Origin: Escherichia phage HZ2R8
Sequence record: NC_047923.1
Direction: 5' to 3' (one strand)
Length of the DNA stretch: 39,482 nucleotides
Under the pieces are notes generated by a model. It saw only the letters and a list, made by a program, of their open reading frames with translations, did not search any database and was not told where the DNA came from. The stretch's first letter is position 1. Each line of letters starts with the position of its first letter. The translations under genes and the position numbers were made by a program. This document shows positions 2,887 to 24,820 of this stretch, one piece after another.

Positions 2887-3330
2887 ATGATAAGCAAGAA
2901 GAAGTATGTTATCGATAAGGAGACTGGTTGCTGGAACTTTAGGGGATGTAAGACGAAGACTGGTTATGGTCGCATTCGTGTGAACGGAGTCCATTGGATG
3001 GCCCACAGGTATTCCCTGAGTTGTCATCTAGGCAGACCGATAGCTGACGGAATGGTTGTGATGCACCTATGTGATAATCCTTCATGTGTTAACCCTGAGC
3101 ACCTTAAGGAAGGGACTCAGAAGGAGAACATAGAGGACTGCATCTCAAAAGGTCGTGCAACTAAGGCCACAGGTAAACGTGATGCAACTAAGAGAGACCC
3201 TAGCGAGGAACGTAAGGCTATAGTGATTCGAAGATACCATAAAGGCTGGACCGCAACGTCCATAGCGAGATACCATAAGCTCTCTGTGGCGTGGGTAAAG
3301 AGGGTCATTGAGGATTACCTAAGTGATTGA
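2887..3330 (+). CDS. HNH endonuclease (HNH_3-type, putative homing endonuclease) with C-terminal HTH-like tail
   Basis: 147-aa ORF; motif VVMHLCDNPSCVNPEHL; clear paralog of the 22818..23210 ORF; AAGGAGG SD; sits between gene 19 and phiOR where I recall no gene in T7. Confidence 0.8.
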   Translation: MISKKKYVIDKETGCWNFRGCKTKTGYGRIRVNGVHWMAHRYSLSCHLGRPIADGMVVMHLCDNPSCVNPEHLKEGTQKENIEDCISKGRATKATGKRDATKRDPSEERKAIVIRRYHKGWTATSIARYHKLSVAWVKRVIEDYLSD

Positions 3331-4420: not shown

Positions 4421-4450
4421 TTGACAACACGCAGTAACATGCAGTAAGAT
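4421..4450 (+). promoter_or_regulatory. Host sigma70 early promoter A2-like
   Basis: TTGACA - 18 bp - TAAGAT. Confidence 0.7.
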
Positions 4451-4526
4451 ACACAGCGTCAACACGGTAGCACGGTGTCTTCTAGGTGACTCAAGCGCAC
4501 CACGGCACACAAAGCAAACAAAACGG

Positions 4527-4555
4527 TTGACAACATGCAGTAAACACGGTACGAT
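4527..4555 (+). promoter_or_regulatory. Host sigma70 early promoter A3-like
   Basis: TTGACA - 17 bp - TACGAT. Confidence 0.7.
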
Positions 4556-4673
4556 GTACCACAGGCAGTAAGGGCGTAGGGATAGGAACCGAGAAACCTG
4601 CCCGTGACCCGCCAAGGATAAGGCACTAGCCATGAGTCGAATTCGGTCACTCATCGCATAAAAGAATAACAGG

Positions 4674-4702
4674 TTGACAGCCTCCTTTAAAAGCTGTAAG
4701 AT
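4674..4702 (+). promoter_or_regulatory. Additional (fourth) host sigma70-type early promoter
   Basis: TTGACA - 17 bp - TAAGAT; lies in a ~147-bp segment bracketed by direct repeats GATGTACCAC (4553-4562 and 4700-4709). Confidence 0.55.
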
Positions 4703-4822
4703 GTACCACGAAATGACGGAACAGTGAGTCACCACACTGAAAGGTGATGCGGTCTAACGAAACCTGACCAAAGACGCTCTTTAACAATCTGGTAAACGGC
4801 TCTTGAGTGTACACACGTAGCG

Positions 4823-4858
4823 GATAACTCAAGGGTATCGCAAGGTGCCCTTTATGAT
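4823..4858 (+). promoter_or_regulatory. RNase III-type processing hairpin (R0.3-like) upstream of ocr
   Basis: ...ACTCAAGGGTATCGCAAGGTGCCCTTTATGAT... Confidence 0.5.
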
Positions 4859-4889
4859 ATCCACTAACAACACTATGAGGTAACACACA

Positions 4890-5252
4890 ATGGCTATGTC
4901 TAACATGACTTATAACAACGTTTTCGATCACGCTTACGAAATGCTGAAAGAAAACATCCGTTATGATGACATCCGTGACGCTGATGACCTGCACGATGCA
5001 GTGCATATGGCTGCTGATAATGCTGTTCCGCACTACTACAGCGACATTTTCAGCGTAATGGCAAGCGAGGGCATTGACCTTGAGTTTGAGGATTCTGGTC
5101 TGATGCCGGACACCAAGGACGTAATCCGTATCCTGCAAGCACGTATCTATGAGCAATTAACGATTGACCTTTGGGAAGATGCAGAAGACTTACTGAACGA
5201 GTATCTTGAGGAAGTCGAGGAGTCAGAAGAGTACGAGGAGGACGAAGAGTAA
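4890..5252 (+). CDS. 0.3: Ocr (gp0.3) DNA-mimic anti-restriction protein
   Basis: 120-aa highly acidic [25 protein letters not shown]... matching T7 Ocr; first gene after host promoters. Confidence 0.9.
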
Positions 5253-5407
5253 TGGCTAACAACACCACGCAATACGGTCTGACCGCTCAAACTGTACTGT
5301 TCTATAGCGACATGGTGCGCTGTGGTTTTGACTGGTCGCTCGCAATGGAACACCTTAAGGAACTGTACGAAAACAACAAGGCAATAGCCTTGGAGTCTGC
5401 TGAGTGA
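5252..5407 (+). CDS. 0.4: gp0.4-like (FtsZ inhibitor in T7)
   Basis: 51-aa [29 protein letters not shown]..., start overlaps the 0.3 stop; below ORF-track cutoff, hand-translated. Confidence 0.65.
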   Translation: MANNTTQYGLTAQTVLFYSDMVRCGFDWSLAMEHLKELYENNKAIALESAE

Positions 5408-5410
5408 TAG

Positions 5411-5445
5411 GCTCAAGGTCGCTCAATATGAGTGGCCTTTATGAT
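5411..5445 (+). promoter_or_regulatory. RNase III-type processing hairpin (R0.5-like), copy 1
   Basis: GCTCAAGGTCGCTCAATATGAGTGGCCTTTATGATTA. Confidence 0.55.
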
Positions 5446-5476
5446 TATCACTTTAACATGCAATAGGACTAACACC

Positions 5477-5677
5477 ATGAGTAAACTTCTGGCAACATCT
5501 AAAATCAAAGGTCAATGCACTGTAACACTGCGAGAGTATGATCACGGGGCAATGGGTAGCACCTACGTTGTGCGATACGGTAAACAAGTCACACATTGGG
5601 TGAACGAGGTTTTGGCGCAAGAAGAATACCAAGCCTGCGTGATACACCAAGCAACATGTGCAGGCTGGAATGACTGA
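5477..5677 (+). CDS. Hypothetical early protein (0.5 position)
   Basis: ORF track 5432..5677 starts at GTG inside a hairpin; ATG at 5477 more plausible; no recognisable motif. Confidence 0.4.
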   Translation: MSKLLATSKIKGQCTVTLREYDHGAMGSTYVVRYGKQVTHWVNEVLAQEEYQACVIHQATCAGWND

Positions 5678-5728
5678 TGGCGCTATTTGCACGCACTGGA
5701 TAATAGCCTTCTAGTCTACCCAGTGATA

Positions 5729-5765
5729 AACTCAAGGTCTCTCCTAGCGAGTGGCCTTTATGATT
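5729..5765 (+). promoter_or_regulatory. RNase III-type processing hairpin, copy 2 (duplicate of R0.5-like)
   Basis: AACTCAAGGTCTCTCCTAGCGAGTGGCCTTTATGATTA; same flanks as copy 1. Confidence 0.55.
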
Positions 5766-5788
5766 ATCATTCTGAAACAGGTGTACCT

Positions 5789-6232
5789 ATGTCACAACAA
5801 GCTAAAACTTGCATAGCGTGCGGTGAGTTCAAGCCGTTGACGCAATACTACAAGAATGCCTCATCCCTTGACGGTCACATTGGGACGTGTAAGGCATGCA
5901 AGGCCAAACAACAAAGGGAACGAAGGGCACGGAAAAGCAACGCAGAGAGATACACAAAGGAGGCAGCACGCCGCCGCACCAATCATCTGCGAGTAAACTA
6001 CGGGATAGAAGAGGAAACCTATCGCAAGATGTACGAAGAACAGAACGGGGTCTGTGCAATATGTAAGCACCCTGAGAGTATTGTGGGAAGGAGTCTCTGT
6101 GTGGACCATTCACACATTACGGGAGAAGTCCGTGGGCTTCTATGCTCCAATTGCAACAGAGGGATTGGCTTACTCAAGGACTCCCCAGAGTTGGTACGAA
6201 ACGCTTTTCACTACTTAACCGGTAAACTATAG
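5789..6232 (+). CDS. Endonuclease VII-like HNH nuclease (putative homing endonuclease)
   Basis: ATG at 5789 with AGGTG SD; motifs CxxC...CxxC, CVDHSH, GxVRGLLCSNCN typical of the phage endonuclease VII family. Confidence 0.75.
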   Translation: MSQQAKTCIACGEFKPLTQYYKNASSLDGHIGTCKACKAKQQRERRARKSNAERYTKEAARRRTNHLRVNYGIEEETYRKMYEEQNGVCAICKHPESIVGRSLCVDHSHITGEVRGLLCSNCNRGIGLLKDSPELVRNAFHYLTGKL

Positions 6233-6242
6233 GATGCACATT

Positions 6243-6377
6243 ATGAAACACTACGTTATGCCTATCCACACCAAGAACGGCGCTACAGTTTGCACACCTG
6301 ATGGCTTCGCAATGAAACAACGAATCGAACGCCTTAAGCGCGAACTACGCACCAATCGCAAGCTCAACAATATCTAA
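6243..6377 (+). CDS. 0.6: gp0.6-like small early protein
   Basis: 44-aa ORF MKHYVMPIHTKNGATVCTPDGFAMKQRIERLKREL..., resembling T7 gp0.6A as recalled. Confidence 0.5.
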   Translation: MKHYVMPIHTKNGATVCTPDGFAMKQRIERLKRELRTNRKLNNI

Positions 6378-6405
6378 TCACATTTAACACTGGAGAACGC
6401 ACAAA

Positions 6406-7485
6406 GTGAACGCTATCGACATCATGAACGCTATCGACGCAATCAAAGCACTGCCAATCTGTGAACTTGATAAGCGTCAAAGTATGCTCATTGATTTGCT
6501 GGTCGAAATGGTAAACAGCGAAACGTGTGACGGTGAGATAACCGAGTTGAATATGCCGCTCGAATGTCAATACTGGTGGACTACCTTAAAGTGCCTGACC
6601 GCTGACGCTGGCTTCACGATGCTCGGTAATGGTCACTTCTCCGCTGCATATAGTCACCCACTGCTGCCTAACAGAGTGATTAAGGTGGGCTTTAAGAAAG
6701 AGGATTCAGGCGCTGCGTATATCGCATTCTGCCGCATGTATCAGGGACGCGCTGGTATCCCTAACGTCTACGATGTTCAACGTCATGCAGGCTGTTACAC
6801 GGTGGTTCTCGATGCTCTGAATGACTGCGAACATTACGATAACGAGGATCATGTGAAGTATGCTACAATGGCAAGAGGCATTATTGATTATAACTCGGAT
6901 GTATATGACAAGCGTACTGGATGGGATGGGGAGTTCGTCGAGACGTGCAAGCTAATCCGCAAGTTCTTTGAGGGAATCGCATCGTTCGATATGCACAGCG
7001 GTAACATTATGTTCGACGATAATGATGTACCGTTCATTACTGACCCTGTGTCGTTCTCACAGAAGAAAGACGGTGGCGTGTTCAGCATGGACCCTGAGGA
7101 ACTCATCAAGGAAGTCGAGGAGGTCGCACGCCAGAAAGCAATAGACCGCGCCAAGGAGCGTAAAGCACGCCATGAGGGTCGCTTGCAAGCGCGTAGAGTC
7201 AAACGCATTAACCGTAAGGCACGTAAGGCACACCGCGCTAAGCGTGAAAGACTAACAGCACTATGGCGTATGAACGAGCGTCAAGAACGGCGTAACCATG
7301 AGGTAGCTGTAGATGCACTAGGAAGAACCAATAACGCTATGCTCTGGGTCAATATGCTCTCTGGGGGCTTTAAGGCGCTTGAGGAGCGAATCGCGCTGCG
7401 CTGGCGTAATGCTGACCGCATGGCTATCGCTAATGGTCTTCCGCTAAACATTGATAAGCAACTTGACGCAATGCTAATGGGCTGA
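6406..7485 (+). CDS. 0.7: Ser/Thr protein kinase and host shutoff protein (gp0.7)
   Basis: 359-aa ORF near-identical to T7 gp0.7; start is GTG at 6406 (alternative in-frame ATG at 6424). Confidence 0.9.
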
Positions 7486-7497
7486 TAGTCTTATCTT

Positions 7498-7520
7498 ACA
7501 GGTCATCTGCGGGTGGCCTG
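7498..7520 (+). promoter_or_regulatory. RNase III-type hairpin (R1-like) upstream of gene 1
   Basis: CAGGTCATCTGCGGGTGGCCTG. Confidence 0.5.
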
Positions 7521-7554
7521 AATAGATACGATTCCTGACCGAAAGAGGTACAAA

Positions 7555-10206
7555 ATGAGCACGATTAACATCGCTAAGAACGATTTCTCTGACATCGAAC
7601 TGGCTGCTATCCCGTTCAACACTCTGGCTGACCACTACGGTGAGCGCCTAGCTCGCGAGCAGTTGGCCCTTGAGCATGAGAGCTATGAAATGGGTGAAGC
7701 ACGTTTCCGCAAGATGTTTGAGCGTCAACTCAAGGCCGGTGAGGTTGCAGACAATGCAGCTGCTAAACCGCTGATTACTACTCTGCTGCCCAAGATGGTT
7801 ACACGCATCAACGACTGGTTTGAGGAAGTGAAAGCTAAGCGCGGCAAACGTCCAACCGCTTTCCAGTTCCTGCAAGGAATCAAGCCGGAATCTGTAGCGT
7901 ATATCACCATCAAGACTACCCTTGCTTGTCTGACGAGCGTTGACAATACAACCGTTCAGGCTGTAGCAAGCGCCATCGGACGGGCTATCGAGGAAGAAGC
8001 TCGCTTCGGTCGAATCCGTGACCTAGAAGCTAAGCACTTCAAGAAAAACGTTGAGGAACAACTAAACAAGCGCGTAGGGCACGTCTATAAGAAGGCATTC
8101 ATGCAGGTAGTCGAGGCTGATATGCTCTCTAAGGGTCTACTAGGTGGAGAGGCGTGGTCTTCATGGCACAAGGAAGACTCCATTCACGTTGGGGTGCGCT
8201 GCATCGAGATGCTCATTGAGTCCACCGGAATGGTTAGCCTGCACCGCCAAAATGCTGGCGTAGTGGGCCAAGACTCTGAGACTATCGAGCTGGCACACGA
8301 ATACGCTGAGGCTATCGCAACCCGCGCTGGGGCACTGGCTGGCATCTCTCCGATGTATCAGCCTTGCATAGTCCCTCCTAAGCCTTGGACTGGTGTAACT
8401 GGTGGTGGCTACTGGGCCAACGGTCGCCGCCCTCTGGTACTGGTACGCACTCACAGCAAGAAGGCACTGATGCGCTACGAAGATGTTTACATGCCTGAGG
8501 TATACAAGGCGATCAACATTGCGCAAAACACCGCTTGGAAAATCAACAAGAAAGTCCTAGCAGTTGCCAACGTGATAACCAAGTGGAAGCATTGTCCAGT
8601 CGAAGACATCCCTTCGATTGAACGTGAAGAACTCCCGATGAAACCGGAAGACATCGACACGAATCCAGAGGCGCTGACCGCTTGGAAACGTGCTGCTGCC
8701 GCTGTGTACCGTAAAGACAAGGCCCGTAAATCTCGCCGCATAAGCCTTGAGTTCATGCTTGAGCAAGCCAACAAGTTTGCTAACCGCAAGGCCATCTGGT
8801 TCCCTTACAACATGGACTGGCGTGGTCGTGTATACGCTGTGTCAATGTTTAATCCGCAAGGGAACGACATGACCAAAGGACTGCTGACACTGGCTAAAGG
8901 TAAACCAATCGGCAAGGAAGGTTTCTACTGGCTGAAAATCCACGGTGCTAACTGCGCGGGAGTTGATAAGGTTCCATTCCCTGAGCGCATCAAGTTCATT
9001 GAGGATAACCATGAGAACATCCTAGCGTGCGCTAAGTCCCCACTGGAAAACACTTGGTGGGCTGAGCAAGATTCTCCGTTCTGCTTCCTCGCGTTCTGCT
9101 TTGAGTACGCTGGGGTACAGCACCACGGCTTGAGCTACAACTGTTCACTGCCGCTGGCGTTCGATGGGTCTTGCTCTGGCATTCAGCACTTCTCCGCGAT
9201 GCTCCGCGATGAGGTAGGCGGTCGGGCTGTTAACCTGCTGCCTAGCGAAACCGTTCAGGACATCTACGGGATTGTTGCCAAGAAAGTTAACGAGATTCTG
9301 CAATCAGATGCAATCAACGGGACCGATAACGAAGTAGTTACCGTGACCGATGAGAACACTGGTGAAATCTCTGAGAAAATCAAGCTGGGTACTAAAGCAC
9401 TGGCTGGTCAATGGTTGGCCTACGGTGTAACTCGTAGCGTCACTAAACGTTCAGTCATGACGCTGGCCTATGGTTCCAAAGAGTTCGGCTTCCGCCAGCA
9501 AGTCCTTGAGGATACCATACAGCCAGCTATTGATTCCGGCAAAGGTCTGATGTTCACCCAACCTAATCAGGCTGCTGGGTATATGGCTAAGCTGATCTGG
9601 GAGTCAGTGAGCGTTACCGTAGTGGCTGCTGTAGAGGCCATGAACTGGCTTAAGTCTGCTGCTAAGTTGTTGGCTGCCGAGGTCAAAGATAAGAAGACTG
9701 GTGAGATTCTTCGCAAGCGTTGCGCGGTGTATTGGGTAACTCCTGATGGCTTCCCTGTGTGGCAAGAATACAAGAAGCCAATTCAGACTCGCTTGAACTT
9801 GATGTTCCTCGGTCAGTTCCGCTTACAGCCGACCATCAACACCAACAAGGACAGCGAGATTGATGCCCATAAGCAGGAGTCTGGTATCGCTCCTAACTTT
9901 GTACACAGCCAAGACGGTAGCCACCTACGTAAGACTGTAGTGTGGGCACATGAGAAGTACGGAATCGAATCTTTTGCACTGATTCATGACTCCTTCGGGA
10001 CCATTCCGGCTGACGCTGCCAACCTCTTCAAAGCTGTTCGTGAAACGATGGTTGACACCTACGAGTCCTGCGATGTGCTTGCTGACTTCTACAGCCAGTT
10101 CGCTGACCAGTTACATGAGTCCCAACTGGATAAAATGCCAGCACTTCCGGCTAAAGGTAACTTGAATTTACGAGACATCTTAGAGTCAGACTTCGCGTTT
10201 GCGTAA
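7555..10206 (+). CDS. 1: Single-subunit DNA-dependent RNA polymerase (T7 RNAP-like)
   Basis: 883-aa ORF, near-identical to T7 RNAP, same length. Confidence 0.97.
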   Translation: MSTINIAKNDFSDIELAAIPFNTLADHYGERLAREQLALEHESYEMGEARFRKMFERQLKAGEVADNAAAKPLITTLLPKMVTRINDWFEEVKAKRGKRPTAFQFLQGIKPESVAYITIKTTLACLTSVDNTTVQAVASAIGRAIEEEARFGRIRDLEAKHFKKNVEEQLNKRVGHVYKKAFMQVVEADMLSKGLLGGEAWSSWHKEDSIHVGVRCIEMLIESTGMVSLHRQNAGVVGQDSETIELAHEYAEAIATRAGALAGISPMYQPCIVPPKPWTGVTGGGYWANGRRPLVLVRTHSKKALMRYEDVYMPEVYKAINIAQNTAWKINKKVLAVANVITKWKHCPVEDIPSIEREELPMKPEDIDTNPEALTAWKRAAAAVYRKDKARKSRRISLEFMLEQANKFANRKAIWFPYNMDWRGRVYAVSMFNPQGNDMTKGLLTLAKGKPIGKEGFYWLKIHGANCAGVDKVPFPERIKFIEDNHENILACAKSPLENTWWAEQDSPFCFLAFCFEYAGVQHHGLSYNCSLPLAFDGSCSGIQHFSAMLRDEVGGRAVNLLPSETVQDIYGIVAKKVNEILQSDAINGTDNEVVTVTDENTGEISEKIKLGTKALAGQWLAYGVTRSVTKRSVMTLAYGSKEFGFRQQVLEDTIQPAIDSGKGLMFTQPNQAAGYMAKLIWESVSVTVVAAVEAMNWLKSAAKLLAAEVKDKKTGEILRKRCAVYWVTPDGFPVWQEYKKPIQTRLNLMFLGQFRLQPTINTNKDSEIDAHKQESGIAPNFVHSQDGSHLRKTVVWAHEKYGIESFALIHDSFGTIPADAANLFKAVRETMVDTYESCDVLADFYSQFADQLHESQLDKMPALPAKGNLNLRDILESDFAFA

Positions 10207-10214
10207 TAGCAAAT

Positions 10215-10237
10215 TAATACGACTCACTATAGAGGGG
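10215..10237 (+). promoter_or_regulatory. Phage RNAP promoter phi1.1A
   Basis: TAATACGACTCACTATAGAGGGG directly after the gene 1 stop. Confidence 0.85.
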
Positions 10238-10240
10238 CAA

Positions 10241-10275
10241 ACTCAAGGTCACTTAAACGAGTGGCCTTTTATGAT
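10241..10275 (+). promoter_or_regulatory. RNase III-type hairpin (R1.1-like)
   Basis: ACTCAAGGTCACTTAAACGAGTGGCCTTTTATGAT. Confidence 0.55.
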
Positions 10276-10280
10276 TGACC

Positions 10281-10303
10281 TTCTTCAGGTTAATACGACT
10301 CAC
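10281..10303 (+). promoter_or_regulatory. Phage RNAP promoter phi1.1B
   Basis: TAATACGACTCACTATAGGGAAG. Confidence 0.85.
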
Positions 10304-13936: not shown

Positions 13937-14392
13937 GTGGCTGGCGCATACGCTGCGCGTGGTATCAGAAAGGTCGGGACATTCCGTTCCGGCCTAGAAG
14001 ATAAAGTCTCTAAGCAGCTAGAGGGTAAGGGTATCAAGTTCGACTATGAACTGTGGAAAATCCCTTACGTTGTCCCTGCGAGTAACCATGTCTACACTCC
14101 AGACTTCCTGCTGCCTAACGGAATCTTTATTGAAACCAAAGGTTTATGGGAGAGTGACGACCGAAAGAAACACTTACTGATTCGCGAACAGTTTCCCGAA
14201 CTGGACATCCGTCTGGTATTCTCAAGCTCACGCACCAAGCTGTACAAAGGGTCTCCGACCAGTTACGGTGAGTGGTGCGAGAAGCACGGCATACTGTTTG
14301 CTGACAAATTAATTCCGGTAGAATGGCTCAAAGAACCTAAAAAGGAGGTGCCATTTGACAAGTTAAAGCAATCTAAGGGAGGAAAGAAATAA
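13937..14392 (+). CDS. 3: Endonuclease I (Holliday junction resolvase, gp3)
   Basis: 151-aa ORF starting at GTG; T7 endonuclease I-like throughout. Confidence 0.9.
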   Translation: MAGAYAARGIRKVGTFRSGLEDKVSKQLEGKGIKFDYELWKIPYVVPASNHVYTPDFLLPNGIFIETKGLWESDDRKKHLLIREQFPELDIRLVFSSSRTKLYKGSPTSYGEWCEKHGILFADKLIPVEWLKEPKKEVPFDKLKQSKGGKK

Positions 14393-16897: not shown

Positions 16898-17167
16898 ATG
16901 TCAAACGTAGCTGAAACTATCCGTCTATCCGATACCGCCGACCAGTGGAACCGCCGAGTTCACATCAACGTTCGTAACGGAAAGGCTACTATGGTTTACC
17001 GTTGGAAGGACTCTAAGTCCTCTAAGAATCACACTCAGCGTATGACGTTGACGGACGAGCAAGCACTGCGTCTGGTCAATGCGCTTACCAAAGCTGCCGT
17101 GACAGCAATCCATGAATCTGGTCGCGTCAATGAAGCTATGGCTATCCTCGACAAGATTGATAGCTAA
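16898..17167 (+). CDS. 4.5: gp4.5-like protein
   Basis: ORF-track start 16871 is TTG; ATG at 16898 with AGGAGA SD gives 89 aa MSNVAETIRLSD... Confidence 0.7.
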   Translation: MSNVAETIRLSDTADQWNRRVHINVRNGKATMVYRWKDSKSSKNHTQRMTLTDEQALRLVNALTKAAVTAIHESGRVNEAMAILDKIDS

Positions 17168-17176
17168 GAGTGGTAT

Positions 17177-17206
17177 ACTCAAGGTCGCCCTAGTGGTGGC
17201 CTTCAT
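17177..17206 (+). promoter_or_regulatory. RNase III-type hairpin (R4.7-like)
   Basis: ACTCAAGGTCGCCCTAGTGGTGGCCTTCAT. Confidence 0.5.
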
Positions 17207-17211
17207 GAATA

Positions 17212-17234
17212 CTATTCTACTCACTATAGGAGAT
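17212..17234 (+). promoter_or_regulatory. Phage RNAP promoter phi4.7 (divergent: CTATTCTACTCACTATAGGAGAT)
   Basis: -8 to +6 match consensus; upstream specificity region carries substitutions, so probably weaker. Confidence 0.6.
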
Positions 17235-17240
17235 ATTACC

Positions 17241-17660
17241 ATGCGTGACCCTAAAGTTATCCAAGCAGAAATCGCTAAACTGGAAGCTGAACTCGAAGAC
17301 GTTAAGTACCATGAAGCCAAGACTCGCTCCGCTGTTCACATTTTGAAGAACTTAGGCTGGACTTGGACACGACAGGCTGGCTGGAAGAAGCCGGAAGTTT
17401 ACAAGCTGAGCCACAAGGTGTTCGATAAGGACACTATGACCCACGTCAAAGCTGGTGATTGGGTCAAGGTTGATACAGGAGCACATGGTGGATATGGTTA
17501 TGTTAGGAGCGTAAGAGGCAACCTAGCACAAGTATCGTTTATAGAACGCATAGTATTTGACTGCGTTATAGCGCAAGAGTCGTCGAGGATGTATCCAGCT
17601 GATTGTCTGAGAGTTGTCTCATATGATGAACTCGTTCGTACATTTACAGGTAAGAAATAA
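17241..17660 (+). CDS. 4.7: gp4.7-like protein
   Basis: Internal ATG of ORF 17112..17660, after phi4.7; MRDPKVIQAEIAKLEAELEDVKYHEAKTRSAV... Confidence 0.7.
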   Translation: MRDPKVIQAEIAKLEAELEDVKYHEAKTRSAVHILKNLGWTWTRQAGWKKPEVYKLSHKVFDKDTMTHVKAGDWVKVDTGAHGGYGYVRSVRGNLAQVSFIERIVFDCVIAQESSRMYPADCLRVVSYDELVRTFTGKK

Positions 17661-22817: not shown

Positions 22818-23210
22818 ATGGAGAATTGCATCGAGTGGACTAAAGGTACTAACCAGAAGGGTTACGGTAGGAAGTGGGTTGATGGTAAGTTGGTTTCTGC
22901 GCATCGCCACGCCTATGAAGAAGTACACGGTCCTATTCCAGATGGTCTTGTAGTGATGCATCTCTGTGACAATCCTAGATGTTATAACGTGGAGCACTTG
23001 ACTCTTGGGACTCATGCAGACAACTCAGATGACAAGGTGCGTAAAGGTAGACAAGCAAAAGGTGAAACTCTAAGTAATAAACTTACTGAGACAGATGTTT
23101 TGACCATTCGCGCCTTAGACCTACCACATGCTGAGATAGCCAAGATATACGGTGTTAGTCAATCCACCATAACTCGCATAATTAGACGCGACACATGGAG
23201 GCATATCTAA
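22818..23210 (+). CDS. 7.7: HNH endonuclease (gp7.7 position; HNH_3-type with C-terminal HTH)
   Basis: 130-aa ORF; motif VVMHLCDNPRCYNVEHL; paralog of 2887..3330; stop overlaps the gene 8 start. Confidence 0.8.
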   Translation: MENCIEWTKGTNQKGYGRKWVDGKLVSAHRHAYEEVHGPIPDGLVVMHLCDNPRCYNVEHLTLGTHADNSDDKVRKGRQAKGETLSNKLTETDVLTIRALDLPHAEIAKIYGVSQSTITRIIRRDTWRHI

Positions 23211-24820
23211 TGGCTGAGAAACGAACAGGACTTGCGGAGGATGGCGCAAAGTCTGTCTATGAGCGTTTAAAGAACGACCGTGCGCCTTATGAGACGCGTG
23301 CCCAGAATTGCGCTCAATATACCATCCCATCATTGTTCCCTAAGGACTCCGATAACGCCTCTACAGACTACACAACTCCGTGGCAAGCCGTGGGTGCTCG
23401 TGGTCTAAACAATCTAGCATCTAAGCTCATGCTGGCCCTGTTCCCGATGCAGACTTGGATGCGACTTACTATATCTGAATATGAAGCAAAGCAGCTACTG
23501 AGTGACCCAGATGGACTCGCTAAGGTTGATGAGGGCCTCTCAATGGTAGAGCGCATCATTATGAACTACATTGAGTCTAACAGCTACCGAGTGACACTCT
23601 TTGAGGCTCTCAAGCAGTTAGTCGTTGCTGGTAACGTCCTGCTGTACCTACCGGAACCAGAAGGGTCGAACTATAATCCCATGAAGCTGTACCGATTGTC
23701 TTCTTATGTGGTCCAACGAGACGCATTCGGCAACGTTCTGCAAATGGTGACTCGCGACCAGATAGCTTTCGGGGCACTCCCTGAGGATGTCCGTAAGGCT
23801 GTAGAAGGCCAAGGTGGTGAGAAGAAACCTGATGAGACCATTGATGTGTACACTCACGTCTATCTGGACGAAGAATCAGGAGAGTATCTCCGCTACGAAG
23901 AGGTTGAAGGTATGGAAATTCAAGGCTCCGATGGGTCTTACCCTAAAGAGGCTTGTCCGTACATCCCGATTCGAATGGTTCGACTAGATGGTGAATCATA
24001 CGGTCGTTCGTACATTGAGGAATACTTAGGCGACTTACGGTCCCTTGAGAATCTCCAAGAGGCTATCGTTAAGATGTCCATGATTAGCTCTAAGGTTATC
24101 GGCTTAGTGAACCCTGCTGGTATTACCCAGCCACGCCGACTGACTAAAGCTCAGACTGGTGACTTCGTTACAGGTCGCCCAGAAGACATCTCGTTCCTAC
24201 AATTGGAGAAGCAAGCGGACTTTACTGTGGCTAAGGCAGTCAGTGACGCTATCGAGGCTCGCCTTTCGTTTGCCTTTATGTTGAACTCTGCGGTTCAGCG
24301 CACTGGTGAACGTGTGACCGCCGAAGAGATTCGGTACGTTGCGTCAGAACTTGAAGACACTTTGGGTGGTGTCTACTCAATCCTTTCTCAAGAATTACAA
24401 TTGCCTCTGGTACGAGTGCTCTTGAAGCAACTGCAAGCCACGCAACAGATTCCTGAGTTACCTAAGGAAGCCGTAGAGCCGACCATTAGTACAGGTCTGG
24501 AAGCAATCGGTCGTGGTCAAGACCTAGATAAGCTGGAACGTTGTGTCTCTGCATGGGCTGCTCTGGCCCCTATGCGTGATGACCCAGACATTAACCTTGC
24601 GATGATTAAGTTACGCATTGCCAACGCTATCGGTATTGACACTTCTGGCATCCTTCTTACCGAAGAGCAGAAGCAACAGAAGATGGCTCAACAGTCTGTG
24701 CAAATGGGTATGGACAATGGTGCTGCTGCGCTTGGTCAAGGTATGGCTGCACAGGCTACAGCTTCACCTGAGGCTATGGCTGCTGCCGCTGATTCCGTAG
24801 GTTTACAGCCGGGAATTTAA
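23210..24820 (+). CDS. 8: Portal (head-tail connector) protein (gp8)
   Basis: ATG at 23210 gives 536 aa MAEKRTGLAEDGAKSVYERL..., near-identical to T7 gp8; ORF-track start 23195 is upstream. Confidence 0.95.
   Translation: MAEKRTGLAEDGAKSVYERLKNDRAPYETRAQNCAQYTIPSLFPKDSDNASTDYTTPWQAVGARGLNNLASKLMLALFPMQTWMRLTISEYEAKQLLSDPDGLAKVDEGLSMVERIIMNYIESNSYRVTLFEALKQLVVAGNVLLYLPEPEGSNYNPMKLYRLSSYVVQRDAFGNVLQMVTRDQIAFGALPEDVRKAVEGQGGEKKPDETIDVYTHVYLDEESGEYLRYEEVEGMEIQGSDGSYPKEACPYIPIRMVRLDGESYGRSYIEEYLGDLRSLENLQEAIVKMSMISSKVIGLVNPAGITQPRRLTKAQTGDFVTGRPEDISFLQLEKQADFTVAKAVSDAIEARLSFAFMLNSAVQRTGERVTAEEIRYVASELEDTLGGVYSILSQELQLPLVRVLLKQLQATQQIPELPKEAVEPTISTGLEAIGRGQDLDKLERCVSAWAALAPMRDDPDINLAMIKLRIANAIGIDTSGILLTEEQKQQKMAQQSVQMGMDNGAAALGQGMAAQATASPEAMAAAADSVGLQPGI

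What the first reader, a model, noticed from the sequence alone, without database searches (positions are those of the whole stretch)
5411..6232. Endonuclease VII-like gene in the early region, bracketed by a duplicated RNase III hairpin
Two near-identical hairpins (5411-5445 and 5729-5765) flank a small unknown ORF and directly precede an endonuclease VII-family gene (5789..6232). That gene sits between the gp0.4 and gp0.6 homologs, where I do not recall a nuclease in T7. A duplicated processing site at the edges of an extra gene is the footprint expected if a homing-endonuclease cassette entered by recombination at the hairpin. It would also mean the endonuclease mRNA is released by RNase III cleavage on both sides.
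Basis: partly seen in the sequence, partly recalled or inferred. Interest (0 to 1): 0.55.

Follow-up and report, generated by a model that had tools for sequence, protein, structure and literature searches.

The report
Mobile nuclease gene beside repeated hairpins
A T7-like phage carries an optional, selfish-type DNA-cutting enzyme gene just downstream of two copies of a standard RNA-processing hairpin, but relatives show the two hairpins belong to a neighbouring small gene and were there before the nuclease, so the arrangement is ordinary for this phage group.

Summary
The sequence features are real. A 68-nt direct repeat (5383-5450 / 5702-5769, 81% identical) contains two T7-type RNase III hairpins. 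They flank a 66-aa ORF, and an Endonuclease-VII-motif gene follows at 5789-6232. The 66-aa ORF is the known optional gene 0.45. At least six relatives have hairpin-0.45-hairpin with no nuclease: CICC 80001, C2, EG1, WW2, PZJ0206 and nasanit. The closest nuclease-carrying relative, HZP2, has one hairpin. The nuclease insert is about 463 bp (about 5780-6242) and contains no hairpin. It lies between the second hairpin and the start of gene 0.6, as shown by the empty site in PZJ0206 and nasanit. The gene is not bracketed: both hairpins lie upstream, and the next RNase III-like hairpin is R1 at about 7487-7533. The protein has the D-H-H-R-N residues and four zinc cysteines at its C-terminus, like the F-CphI homing-endonuclease family, and the phage has its own T7 endonuclease I. 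Homologues are sporadic, usually sit at a different junction (0.6|0.7), and are sometimes decayed. This is the pattern of a free-standing homing endonuclease gene. It is a new member of a known kind. The side observation is that homology breakpoints cluster at hairpin edges, which suggests the hairpins act as cassette joints.

The parts
4421..4702 (+). Three sigma-70-like promoters (TTGACA, 17-18 nt spacer, TAAGAT or TACGAT). They are the likely A1-A3 early promoters that drive the whole interval.
   Evidence: Consensus scan. The position matches A1-A3 of T7 and T3. Function is inferred.
4818..4866 (+). R0.3-type RNase III-like hairpin upstream of ocr (gene 0.3, 4890-5252).
   Evidence: Fold of -20.7 kcal/mol, z = -4.5. 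Aligns with the T7 and T3 R0.3 position.
5252..5407 (+). Gene 0.4 homologue. Its last 25 nt form the start of repeat copy 1.
   Evidence: phrog_7202, E = 1e-33. 84% aa identity to T7 gp0.4.
5383..5450 (+). Copy 1 of the 68-nt direct repeat (tail of gene 0.4 plus hairpin).
   Evidence: the repeat finder family D1.
5402..5453 (+). hp1, an R0.45/R0.5-type RNase III processing hairpin. It has a 9-bp lower stem, a 4/5-nt internal loop and an 11-bp upper stem. By homology to T7 R0.5, cleavage is predicted between U5442 and G5443.
   Evidence: Fold of -24.6 kcal/mol, z = -5.2. Covariation. The T7 R0.5 sequence is aligned. The cleavage position rests on my recollection of the T7 annotation (R0.5 at nt 1468).
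5477..5677 (+). 66-aa ORF, the homologue of optional gene 0.45 of phiSG-JL2. Function unknown. It is not T7 gene 0.5.
   Evidence: phrog_6500, E = 1e-44. Found in 146 phage records. Annotated as 'gp0.45' with 'RNaseIII site R0.45' in phiSG-JL2. Absent from T7.
5702..5769 (+). Copy 2 of the 68-nt repeat. It begins with a non-coding relic of the gene 0.4 tail.
   Evidence: the repeat finder family D1, 81% identity.
5721..5772 (+). hp2, an R0.5-type RNase III hairpin. Its 34-nt core differs from T7 R0.5 by one base (T5740, which gives a U.U mismatch). Cleavage is predicted between U5761 and G5762, which would create the 5' end of the nuclease-0.6-0.7 message.
   Evidence: Fold of -16.3 kcal/mol, z = -2.5. 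Compared with T7. Covariation.
5780..6242 (+). The nuclease cassette proper. This is the DNA present here and in HZP2 but absent from the hairpin|0.6 junction of PZJ0206, nasanit and WX1. It contains no hairpin, no promoter-like site and no terminator-like site on the + strand.
   Evidence: Alignment A2. BLAST breakpoints at 5769/5779 and 6236/6244. Promoter and terminator scan.
5789..6232 (+). 147-aa Endo-VII-motif (DHHRN-type) nuclease gene. It has an N-terminal CxxC...CxxC module and a C-terminal catalytic motif with D106, H107, H109, R115, N123 and zinc cysteines 89, 92, 119 and 122.
   Evidence: PF02945, E = 2.4e-24. phrog_2633, E = 8e-40. PDB matches to Hpy99I and T4 endonuclease VII, with the residue alignment.
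6243..6377 (+). Gene 0.6 homologue. Its first codons and ribosome-binding site were remodelled by the insertion.
   Evidence: phrog_8393. 91% aa identity to T7 gp0.6A. Junction alignment.
6406..7485 (+). Gene 0.7 protein kinase. It is the last cistron of the predicted message that begins at hp2.
   Evidence: 86% aa identity to T7 gp0.7.
7487..7533 (+). R1-like RNase III hairpin upstream of gene 1. It is the first such hairpin 3' of the nuclease gene.
   Evidence: Fold. Same position as the annotated R1 of T3 and phiSG-JL2.

Best explanation
The window is the genome of a T7-like phage (Teseptimavirus; closest relative HZP2, about 94% nt identity). Its early operon reads: promoters - R0.3 hairpin - ocr - 0.4 - hairpin - 0.45 - hairpin - nuclease - 0.6 - 0.7 - R1 hairpin - gene 1.

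The two similar hairpins are ordinary T7-group RNase III processing signals. In this phage group each optional early-gene unit has such a hairpin in front of it. The first hairpin is the 'R0.45' that precedes optional gene 0.45. The second is the R0.5 of the next unit.

The nuclease is a free-standing homing-endonuclease-type gene of the Endo-VII-motif (DHHRN, beta-beta-alpha-metal) family. A cassette of about 463 bp, made of the ORF, its own ribosome-binding site and 10 nt of trailer, was inserted between the pre-existing second hairpin and the start codon of gene 0.6. The recipient was a hairpin-0.45-hairpin-0.6 arrangement of the kind still seen intact in PZJ0206 and nasanit.

The gene is transcribed by host RNA polymerase as part of the early operon. 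RNase III cutting at about 5761/5762 makes it the first cistron of a message of about 1.76 kb (nuclease-0.6-0.7) that ends at R1.

The inferred function is site-specific cleavage of nuclease-free relatives during co-infection, near the 0.6/0.7 region, followed by repair that copies the gene in.

Shown here: the anatomy, the family motif, the insertion boundaries, the distribution among relatives, and conservation of the hairpin structure. Inferred: RNase III cleavage in vivo, the nuclease's activity and target, and homing.
For: Family. PF02945 at E = 2.4e-24. The catalytic D, H, H, R, N and four zinc cysteines align with T4 Endo VII D40, H41, H43, R54, N62 and C23, C26, C58, C61. The motif is C-terminal, as in the 'endonuclease clade' of PMC6083498. 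The phage has its own T7 endonuclease I at 13937-14392 (PF05367, E = 7e-82).

Optional and mobile.
- Of 227 phage records that match the interval, only HZP2 has this gene at 95% aa identity or more, and 22 further records have it at 60-90%.
- The hairpin-nuclease junction sequence occurs only in HZP2 in IMG/VR and nowhere in the JGI metagenome scan.
- In WX1, CQ615, PDP351P2, Kp31, ESh12 and phi1_146049 the homologue sits at a different junction, directly upstream of 0.7.
- The CQ615 copy is frameshifted inside the catalytic motif. The PDP351P2 copy has lost its N-terminal 62 aa.

Boundaries. Homology to nuclease-free genomes stops at 5769-5779 and resumes at 6236-6244. The empty site in PZJ0206, nasanit and WX1 shares the TGAAACA just after the hairpin.

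Hairpins predate the nuclease. Hairpin-0.45-hairpin without the nuclease occurs in CICC 80001, C2, EG1, WW2, PZJ0206 and nasanit. EG1 and WW2 have three copies, and T7 has one.

Hairpin identity. The hp2 core is 33/34 identical to T7 R0.5.

Expression. There is no + strand promoter-like or terminator-like site inside the cassette and no hairpin between the nuclease and R1.
Against: No cleavage site or target is known, and nothing here shows the enzyme is active.

Identity to HZP2 in the flanks (about 94.6%) is no higher than elsewhere in the genome, so there is no visible recent co-conversion tract.

GC content of the gene (0.491) matches the genome (0.486), so composition gives no sign of foreign origin.

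hp2 is weakened (U.U mismatch, -16.3 kcal/mol, z = -2.5), so processing there might be less efficient than at hp1.

An alternative history cannot be excluded: the nuclease may have replaced gene 0.5 in a CICC 80001-type genome rather than entering a genome without 0.5.
Confidence: 0.72

Rival explanations
1. The nuclease cassette entered by recombination at the RNase III hairpin and duplicated it, so the two hairpins are the scar of that event and the nuclease mRNA is excised on both sides.
For: hp2 lies immediately upstream of the nuclease, and the left homology breakpoint against T7-type genomes falls at the 3' edge of hp2, at 5769.
Against: The same hairpin pair flanks gene 0.45 in six nuclease-free phages. 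HZP2 has the nuclease behind a single hairpin. Both hairpins are 5' of the nuclease and none follows it before R1. In six other lineages the homologous nuclease sits at the 0.6|0.7 junction with no hairpin beside it.
Confidence: 0.04
2. The nuclease replaced gene 0.5. Starting from a CICC 80001/C2-type genome (hairpin-0.45-hairpin-0.5-0.6), recombination with one end at hp2 and the other at the start of 0.6 swapped the 141-bp gene 0.5 for the nuclease. This differs from the best explanation only in history, not in what the gene is.
For: The closest whole-genome relatives (CICC 80001, EG1, WW2, C2) carry 0.5 exactly where the nuclease is. Their homology to the window ends at 5769 and resumes at 6236.
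Against: The 10 nt after hp2 (TTCTGAAACA) match the 0.5-less junction of PZJ0206, nasanit and WX1 (TTTTGAAACA), not the leader of gene 0.5 (CTTTACTTAC). The 5403-5779 block is 96% identical to PZJ0206 and nasanit.
Confidence: 0.2
3. The protein is a domesticated enzyme that works for the phage, not a selfish homing endonuclease. Possible roles are a junction or branch-resolving enzyme, a host-DNA nuclease, or an anti-competitor or anti-defence nuclease.
For: The catalytic core is shared with the T4 Endo VII resolvase and with the restriction enzyme Hpy99I. It is expressed in the early, host-takeover gene set. No target site is known. The N-terminal module matches a 'Lar-like restriction alleviation' PHROG at E = 2e-7.
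Against: The phage already has T7 endonuclease I. The match to T4 Endo VII covers only its residues 9-70 and lacks the C-terminal dimerisation part. The gene is missing from most close relatives, sits at different junctions, and is decayed in CQ615 and PDP351P2. That pattern is typical of selfish genes and not of useful ones.
Confidence: 0.12
4. The coincidence of homology breakpoints with hairpin edges does not mean recombination happens at the hairpins. The hairpins are simply the only strongly conserved sequence between otherwise unrelated small genes, so alignments must start and stop there.
For: Hairpin cores are nearly invariant because of their RNA function (20 invariant columns of 60). 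BLAST endpoints of related genomes are not independent observations.
Against: The single hairpin of HZP2 is chimeric. Its 5' flank, stem and loop are of hp1 type (AATAC loop), and its 3' flank is of hp2 type (ATCATTCTGAAACA). That is the expected product of hp1 x hp2 recombination. The 5403-5779 block is 96% identical between genera whose flanking 0.7 genes are 66-71% identical, and the sharp boundary lies at the base of hp1.
Confidence: 0.3

Closest known systems
Escherichia phage HZP2 gp10, 'endonuclease VII' (YP_009820202.1)
   Same: 95.9% aa identity over all 147 residues. It has the same 5' junction to an R0.5-type hairpin and the same 3' junction to gene 0.6.
   Different: HZP2 has one chimeric hairpin and lacks gene 0.45. 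It also has a deletion running from within 0.6 into 0.7.
F-CphI / DHHRN family of homing endonucleases (cyanophage S-PM2 ORF177; PMC6083498)
   Same: The Endo VII catalytic motif is at the C-terminus, with all of D, H, H, R, N and the zinc cysteines. It is a free-standing phage gene. The paper places T7-like podovirus members that also encode endonuclease I in its 'endonuclease clade'.
   Different: F-CphI has a demonstrated target, the intron-less psbA gene, and works with a group I intron. No target, intron or activity is known for the gene in this window. I did not align the two proteins directly.
T4 endonuclease VII (gp49; PDB 1EN7, 1E7D, 2QNC)
   Same: Shares the beta-beta-alpha-metal catalytic core and zinc site. 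The match covers T4 residues 9-70 at E = 1.6e-5.
   Different: In T4 the motif is N-terminal and is followed by a dimerisation domain that makes it a junction resolvase. Here the motif is C-terminal behind a CxxC...CxxC module, and the phage has T7 endonuclease I for resolution.
Restriction endonuclease Hpy99I (PDB 3FC3)
   Same: It is the best solved-structure match at E = 2e-7, aligning its C-terminal catalytic domain, residues 139-195.
   Different: Hpy99I is a bacterial type II restriction enzyme with a partner methylase. There is no methylase here, and the context is a phage early operon.
T7 RNase III site R0.5, and the annotated R0.45 and R0.5 of phiSG-JL2 and T3
   Same: Same two-stem, internal-loop structure and same position in front of early genes. 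The hp2 core is 33/34 identical to T7 R0.5.
   Different: T7 and T3 have one copy in this interval. This window has two, and EG1 and WW2 have three. Cleavage has not been tested for this phage.
PeSL cassettes (promoter-early stem-loops) of T4-type phages (Arbiol et al. 2010, PMC2839356)
   Same: A short repeated regulatory motif separates optional small ORFs in a variable region. Insertions, deletions and replacements between relatives have their ends at the motif.
   Different: PeSLs are promoter-plus-terminator units in T4-type myoviruses. Here the motif is an RNA-processing hairpin inside a single operon of a T7-type podovirus. No mini-circles or recombination products were observed.

Membership tests
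Endo-VII-motif (DHHRN) nucleases | Match to Pfam Endonuclease_7 (PF02945) above the curated cut-off | tested here: met
   85.5 bits against a cut-off of 23.6, E = 2.4e-24, residues 66-144.
Endo-VII-motif (DHHRN) nucleases | Catalytic D, H, H, R, N residues and the CX2-4C / CX2C zinc ligands, as defined in PMC6083498 | tested here: met
   D106, H107, H109, R115, N123 and C89, C92, C119, C122 align with T4 D40, H41, H43, R54, N62 and C23, C26, C58, C61 (definitions).
Endo-VII-motif (DHHRN) nucleases, 'endonuclease clade' | Motif at the C-terminus, in a phage that has a separate resolvase | tested here: met
   The motif occupies residues 66-144 of 147. T7 endonuclease I is present at 13937-14392. 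I did not build a phylogenetic tree.
T4 gp49-type Holliday junction resolvase | Full-length similarity with an N-terminal catalytic domain and a C-terminal dimerisation domain | tested here: not met
   Only T4 residues 9-70 align, and they align to the C-terminal half of this protein.
Free-standing homing endonuclease gene | Present or absent among closely related genomes, with precise boundaries between conserved genes | tested here: met
   Absent from CICC 80001, C2, EG1, WW2, T7, PZJ0206 and nasanit. Boundaries at 5769-5779 and 6236-6244.
Free-standing homing endonuclease gene | Signs of mobility and of the invasion-decay cycle: other insertion sites and degenerate copies | tested here: met
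   Homologues (67-78% aa identity) sit at the 0.6|0.7 junction in six phages. More distant ones (about 41-45%) sit at gene 13.5. The CQ615 copy is frameshifted and the PDP351P2 copy is truncated.
Free-standing homing endonuclease gene | Site-specific cleavage of the gene-less allele, and gene conversion in mixed infection | not testable with these tools
   Needs enzyme assays and phage crosses. No co-conversion tract is visible.
T7-group RNase III processing signals | Lower stem, asymmetric internal loop and upper stem, with the conserved CUCAAGG...GGCCUUUAUGAU sequence | tested here: met
   Folds. Alignment with T7 R0.5 and R1.1 and with the annotated T3 R0.3, R0.5 and R1.1.
T7-group RNase III processing signals | Base pairs maintained by compensatory change | tested here: met
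   94.4% of cells pair, against 30-51% when slid. Seven pairs change on both sides. 0 of 500 shuffles reach the observed values. hp2 itself has one U.U mismatch.
T7-group RNase III processing signals | RNase III-dependent cleavage in vivo or in vitro | not testable with these tools
   No Rfam family matches. Cleavage is inferred from homology to T7 R0.5.
PeSL-type shuffling cassettes | A repeated regulatory motif flanks optional ORFs, and rearrangement end-points lie at the motif | tested here: met
   About 18 of 22 main BLAST end-points in 5250-5800 lie within 10 nt of a hairpin edge. These are not independent observations. HZP2 has a chimeric hairpin.
PeSL-type shuffling cassettes | The motif is a sigma-70 promoter plus a terminator stem-loop | tested here: not met
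   There is no + strand promoter-like or terminator-like site at the hairpins. They are RNase III-type signals. The window resembles PeSLs in behaviour but is not a member.

The most novel reading that the evidence does not exclude
The reiterated R0.5-type RNase III hairpins (about 50-70 bp of near-identical DNA in front of each optional early gene) are the recombination joints that let early-gene cassettes be gained, lost and exchanged between T7-group genera (Teseptimavirus, Berlinvirus, Teetrevirus). The cassettes include 0.45, the 95-aa gene, 0.5/0.6, and at one site a homing endonuclease. This would be a T7-group counterpart of the PeSL system of T4-type phages, built from an RNA-processing signal. 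I found no description of it in the searchable paper library.
Probability: 0.4. Interest if true: 0.45.

Novelty: new member of a known kind. Interest (0 to 1): 0.25.

Why it matters
For annotation, the case is settled. The 66-aa ORF is gene 0.45. The two hairpins are R0.45/R0.5-type RNase III signals. The 'endonuclease VII' is a free-standing homing-endonuclease-type gene and not a resolvase.

For phage engineering and therapy, the early 0.3-0.7 interval of T7-like phages is a tolerated insertion zone. Its natural joints could be reused as landing sites.

The nuclease, if active, could bias marker inheritance in mixed infections or phage cocktails.

The broader point, hairpin-bounded early-gene cassettes moving between genera, would matter for understanding how host-takeover gene sets diversify. 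It still needs experimental support.

Tried and rejected
- Rfam scan of 4500-8000 at E <= 1 gave no match. There is no curated family for T7 RNase III sites, so this says nothing either way.
- IMG/VR scan for the hairpin pattern returned only 15 loci, mostly the same isolates as in GenBank. It added little to the survey.
- A scan for the exact hairpin-nuclease junction found only HZP2 in IMG/VR and nothing in the JGI metagenomes.
- I looked for a co-conversion tract, meaning raised identity to HZP2 next to the nuclease. None was found: 94.6-94.7% on both sides.
- GC content gave no foreign-origin signal.
- Literature searches for RNase III hairpins as recombination joints in T7-like phages found nothing relevant. 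Searches failed on term length.
- I considered and rejected the idea that the Endo-VII-type enzyme targets the neighbouring hairpin as a DNA cruciform. In six of eight lineages the homologue is not next to a hairpin.
- I did not run the large protein-database searches or a structure prediction. The family assignment was already unambiguous from Pfam, PHROGs and PDB sequence matches.
Full report
**What the window is.** The 39.5-kb window is a circularly permuted genome of a T7-like phage. The region of the finding is the class I (early) operon. It contains ocr/gene 0.3 (4890-5252, Pfam ocr E = 3e-63) and gene 0.4 (5252-5407). A 66-aa ORF follows at 5477-5677, then a 147-aa ORF at 5789-6232. After these come gene 0.6 (6243-6377), the 0.7 kinase (6406-7485) and the T7-type RNA polymerase (7555-10206). 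Three strong sigma-70-like promoters lie upstream at 4421-4702. The nearest genome in the phage collection is Escherichia phage HZP2, at about 94% nt identity over 22 kb. No record contains the 5200-6450 interval as a whole.

**Checking the observation.** The two hairpins exist. The repeat finder reports a 68-nt direct repeat (5383-5450 and 5702-5769) at 81% identity, starting inside the last 25 nt of gene 0.4. Each copy folds into the classic T7 RNase III signal: a 9-bp lower stem, an asymmetric internal loop and a 10-11-bp upper stem. hp1 (5402-5453) folds at -24.6 kcal/mol (z = -5.2). hp2 (5721-5772) folds at -16.3 kcal/mol (z = -2.5). T7's own R0.5 folds the same way.

The 34-nt core of hp2 differs from T7 R0.5 by one base, T5740, which turns a G.U pair into U.U. 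I aligned 31 distinct variants of this hairpin type from related phages. The set includes the annotated T3 R0.3, R0.5 and R1.1 sites and the sequences at the T7 R0.5 and R1.1 positions. In that alignment 94.4% of cells pair, against 30-51% when the partners are slid. Seven pairs carry compensatory changes, and 0 of 500 shuffles reach the observed values.

So the hairpins are real, structured and of the RNase III type. 'Near-identical' overstates it: the structures are 42/53 identical and all five loop bases differ.

The 147-aa ORF is an Endonuclease_7 family member (PF02945, E = 2.4e-24; phrog_2633, E = 8e-40).

The title's word 'bracketed' is wrong. Both hairpins are upstream of the nuclease and bracket the 66-aa ORF. 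The sequence after the nuclease and after 0.6 is unstructured. The next RNase III-like hairpin is the R1-like one at about 7487-7533.

**What relatives show.** I mapped the same interval in 15 related phages by tblastn and by a hairpin pattern search. 'hp' means a hairpin of this type, and 'B' is a 95-aa optional ORF. The arrangements are:

| Phage | Gene order |
|---|---|
| T7 | ocr-0.4-hp-0.5-0.6-0.7 |
| CICC 80001, C2 | ocr-0.4-hp-0.45-hp-0.5-0.6-0.7 |
| EG1, WW2 | ocr-0.4-hp-B-hp-0.45-hp-0.5-0.6-0.7 |
| PZJ0206, nasanit (Berlinvirus) | SAMase-hp-0.45-hp-0.6-0.7 |
| This window | ocr-0.4-hp-0.45-hp-nuclease-0.6-0.7 |
| HZP2 | ocr-0.4-hp-nuclease-0.6 fragment-deletion-gene 1 |
| WX1 | ocr-0.4-hp-B-hp-0.6-nuclease'-0.7 |
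| CQ615, PDP351P2 | ...0.5-0.6-decayed nuclease'-0.7 |
| Kp31, ESh12, phi1_146049 | nuclease' directly upstream of 0.7 |

The 66-aa ORF occurs in 146 phage records. In phiSG-JL2 it is annotated as gene 0.45, and the hairpin in front of it as 'RNaseIII site R0.45'.

The same pair of hairpins around the same small gene therefore exists in at least six nuclease-free phages. The closest nuclease-carrying phage has only one hairpin.

**Boundaries of the nuclease insert.** Homology between the window and nuclease-free genomes runs through hp2 to 5769 (T7, CICC 80001, C2, EG1, WW2, Kp31) or to 5779 (PZJ0206, nasanit). It resumes at 6236-6244. The alignment with the 'empty' hairpin|0.6 junction of PZJ0206, nasanit and WX1 shows the same TGAAACA just after the hairpin. 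About 24 nt there (the 0.6 ribosome-binding site, start codon and first codon) are replaced in the window by about 463 nt. That insert is the nuclease ORF, its own short leader (GGTG 6 nt before the ATG) and a 10-nt trailer that supplies a new ribosome-binding site for 0.6.

The insert carries no hairpin and no + strand promoter-like or terminator-like site. The exact hairpin-nuclease junction sequence is found only in HZP2 in IMG/VR and not at all in the JGI metagenome scan.

**What the nuclease is.** The best solved-structure matches by sequence are the catalytic domains of the restriction enzyme Hpy99I (E = 2e-7) and T4 endonuclease VII (E = 1.6e-5, T4 residues 9-70 only). In that alignment D106, H107, H109, R115 and N123 correspond to T4 D40, H41, H43, R54 and N62. 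C89, C92, C119 and C122 correspond to the zinc ligands.

PMC6083498 uses these residues to define the DHHRN family typified by the homing endonuclease F-CphI. That paper notes that members with the motif at the C-terminus form an 'endonuclease clade'. It also notes that the podoviruses in this clade all encode T7 endonuclease I and so do not need the motif protein as a resolvase. Both conditions hold here: the motif occupies residues 66-144 of 147, and gene 3 endonuclease I is present at 13937-14392 (PF05367, E = 7e-82). The N-terminal 65 residues carry a CxxC-(20)-CxxC module, probably a zinc-ribbon DNA-binding part. That is an inference from PHROG matches.

**Is it a homing endonuclease gene?** The comparative signs are all present.
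- It is sporadic. Of 227 records matching the interval, the HZP2 entries are the only ones at 95% aa identity or more, and 22 records have it at 60-90%.
- Its boundaries between conserved genes are precise.
- The family uses a second insertion point. It sits at the 0.6|0.7 junction in six lineages, and more distant members at about 41-45% aa identity sit at gene 13.5 in the phiYeO3-12, EcoDS1 and K1F-like groups.
- Decayed copies exist. CQ615 is frameshifted inside the catalytic motif. PDP351P2 has lost 62 N-terminal residues by fusion to 0.6 and is also frameshifted.

Cleavage specificity and homing cannot be tested here. There is no visible co-conversion tract and no compositional anomaly.

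**How it most likely works.** Host RNA polymerase transcribes the early operon from the A promoters. By homology to T7 R0.5, RNase III cuts on the 3' side of the internal loop, between 5442 and 5443 and between 5761 and 5762. The T7 cleavage coordinate, nt 1468, is from my memory of the T7 annotation. This would give an ocr-0.4 message, a 319-nt 0.45 message, and a message of about 1.76 kb that starts 27 nt before the nuclease ATG and continues through 0.6 and 0.7 to R1. In T7 terms the nuclease is the first cistron of the '0.7 mRNA'. It would be made early, when a co-infecting relative's early region is also the first DNA to enter the cell. It would presumably cut a nuclease-free allele near 0.6/0.7 so that repair copies the gene in. 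All steps after transcription are inferred.

**The hairpins as cassette joints.** This is the more interesting side observation. Homology end-points in 13 pairwise comparisons fall almost entirely at hairpin edges: 5403, 5450-5457 and 5769-5779. That is about 18 of 22 end-points within 10 nt of an edge, though the comparisons are not independent.

The 5403-5779 block (hp1-0.45-hp2) is 96% identical to Berlinvirus phages whose neighbouring 0.7 genes are only 66-71% identical, and the boundary is sharp at the base of hp1. hp2 is preceded by a relic of the gene 0.4 tail even in Berlinviruses that have no gene 0.4. The single HZP2 hairpin is a chimera of an hp1-type 5' part and an hp2-type 3' flank, the expected product of hp1 x hp2 recombination.

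This resembles the PeSL cassettes of T4-type phages (PMC2839356) in behaviour but not in composition. I found no paper describing it for T7-like phages in the searchable library. That library omits most subscription-journal papers, so absence there is weak evidence.

The feature is a new member of a known kind. The same gene at the same junction is already deposited and annotated in HZP2, and the family is widely annotated in Autographiviridae. Interest is low to moderate. The only part with some novelty potential is the hairpin-joint model for early-gene cassette exchange.

Noticed in passing
window 2887-3330 (+): A second optional nuclease gene: 147 aa with HNH_3 and HTH_23 domains (phrog_6254, E = 3e-60), immediately after the terminase large-subunit gene (1077-2849). 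The full stretch is present in only 24 of 178 related phage records, so it too looks like a sporadic homing-type gene.
   Followed up: partly
window 22818-23210 (+): A third HNH_3-domain gene (130 aa, phrog_59, E = 4e-35), directly upstream of a 541-aa ORF (23195-24820). From memory, that position corresponds to T7 gene 7.7.
   Followed up: no
window 5403-5779; L028 1406-1783; L029 1501-1878: The hairpin-0.45-hairpin block is 96% identical to the Berlinvirus phages PZJ0206 and nasanit. The adjacent 0.7 gene is only 66-71% identical, and the upstream gene differs (SAMase there, ocr/0.4 here). This indicates exchange of an early-gene cassette between genera, bounded at the base of the first hairpin.
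   Followed up: partly
L011 (CQ615) 1789-2243; L012 (PDP351P2) 1762-2059: Decayed copies of the same nuclease family at the 0.6|0.7 junction. CQ615 is frameshifted inside the catalytic motif. PDP351P2 has lost the N-terminal 62 aa through an in-frame fusion with gene 0.6 and is also frameshifted. Their last 32-33 residues are 91-97% identical to the window's protein although the rest is about 66% identical, which suggests mosaicism within the gene.
   Followed up: partly
L001 (HZP2) 1700-1757: The single HZP2 hairpin is chimeric. Its 5' flank, stem and AATAC loop match hp1 of the window, and its 3' flank (ATCATTCTGAAACA) matches hp2. This is consistent with loss of gene 0.45 by recombination between two hairpin copies.
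   Followed up: yes
window 5740 and 5770 (hp2): hp2 carries T5740, which gives a U.U mismatch. It is one of only two of the 31 hairpin variants without a standard pair at that upper-stem position. It also carries C-to-T at 5770, a G.U pair in the lower stem. Together these lower the stability to -16.3 kcal/mol, against -22.8 to -24.6 for hp1 and T7 R0.5. Whether this reduces processing in front of the nuclease is unknown.
   Followed up: no
window 5402-5453, 5721-5772, 10231-10284 and the other RNase III-type hairpins: A paper in the library reports that the DNA of T7 RNase III-site palindromes triggers the Lamassu/DdmABC defence of Vibrio cholerae (PMC11707656). Extra hairpin copies in the early region might therefore carry a cost in hosts with such systems.
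   Followed up: no
window 17112-17660 (+): A 182-aa ORF between the primase/helicase and DNA polymerase genes has no Pfam match. Residues 44-175 match phrog_4023, of unknown function. The listed ORF may start too far upstream.
   Followed up: no
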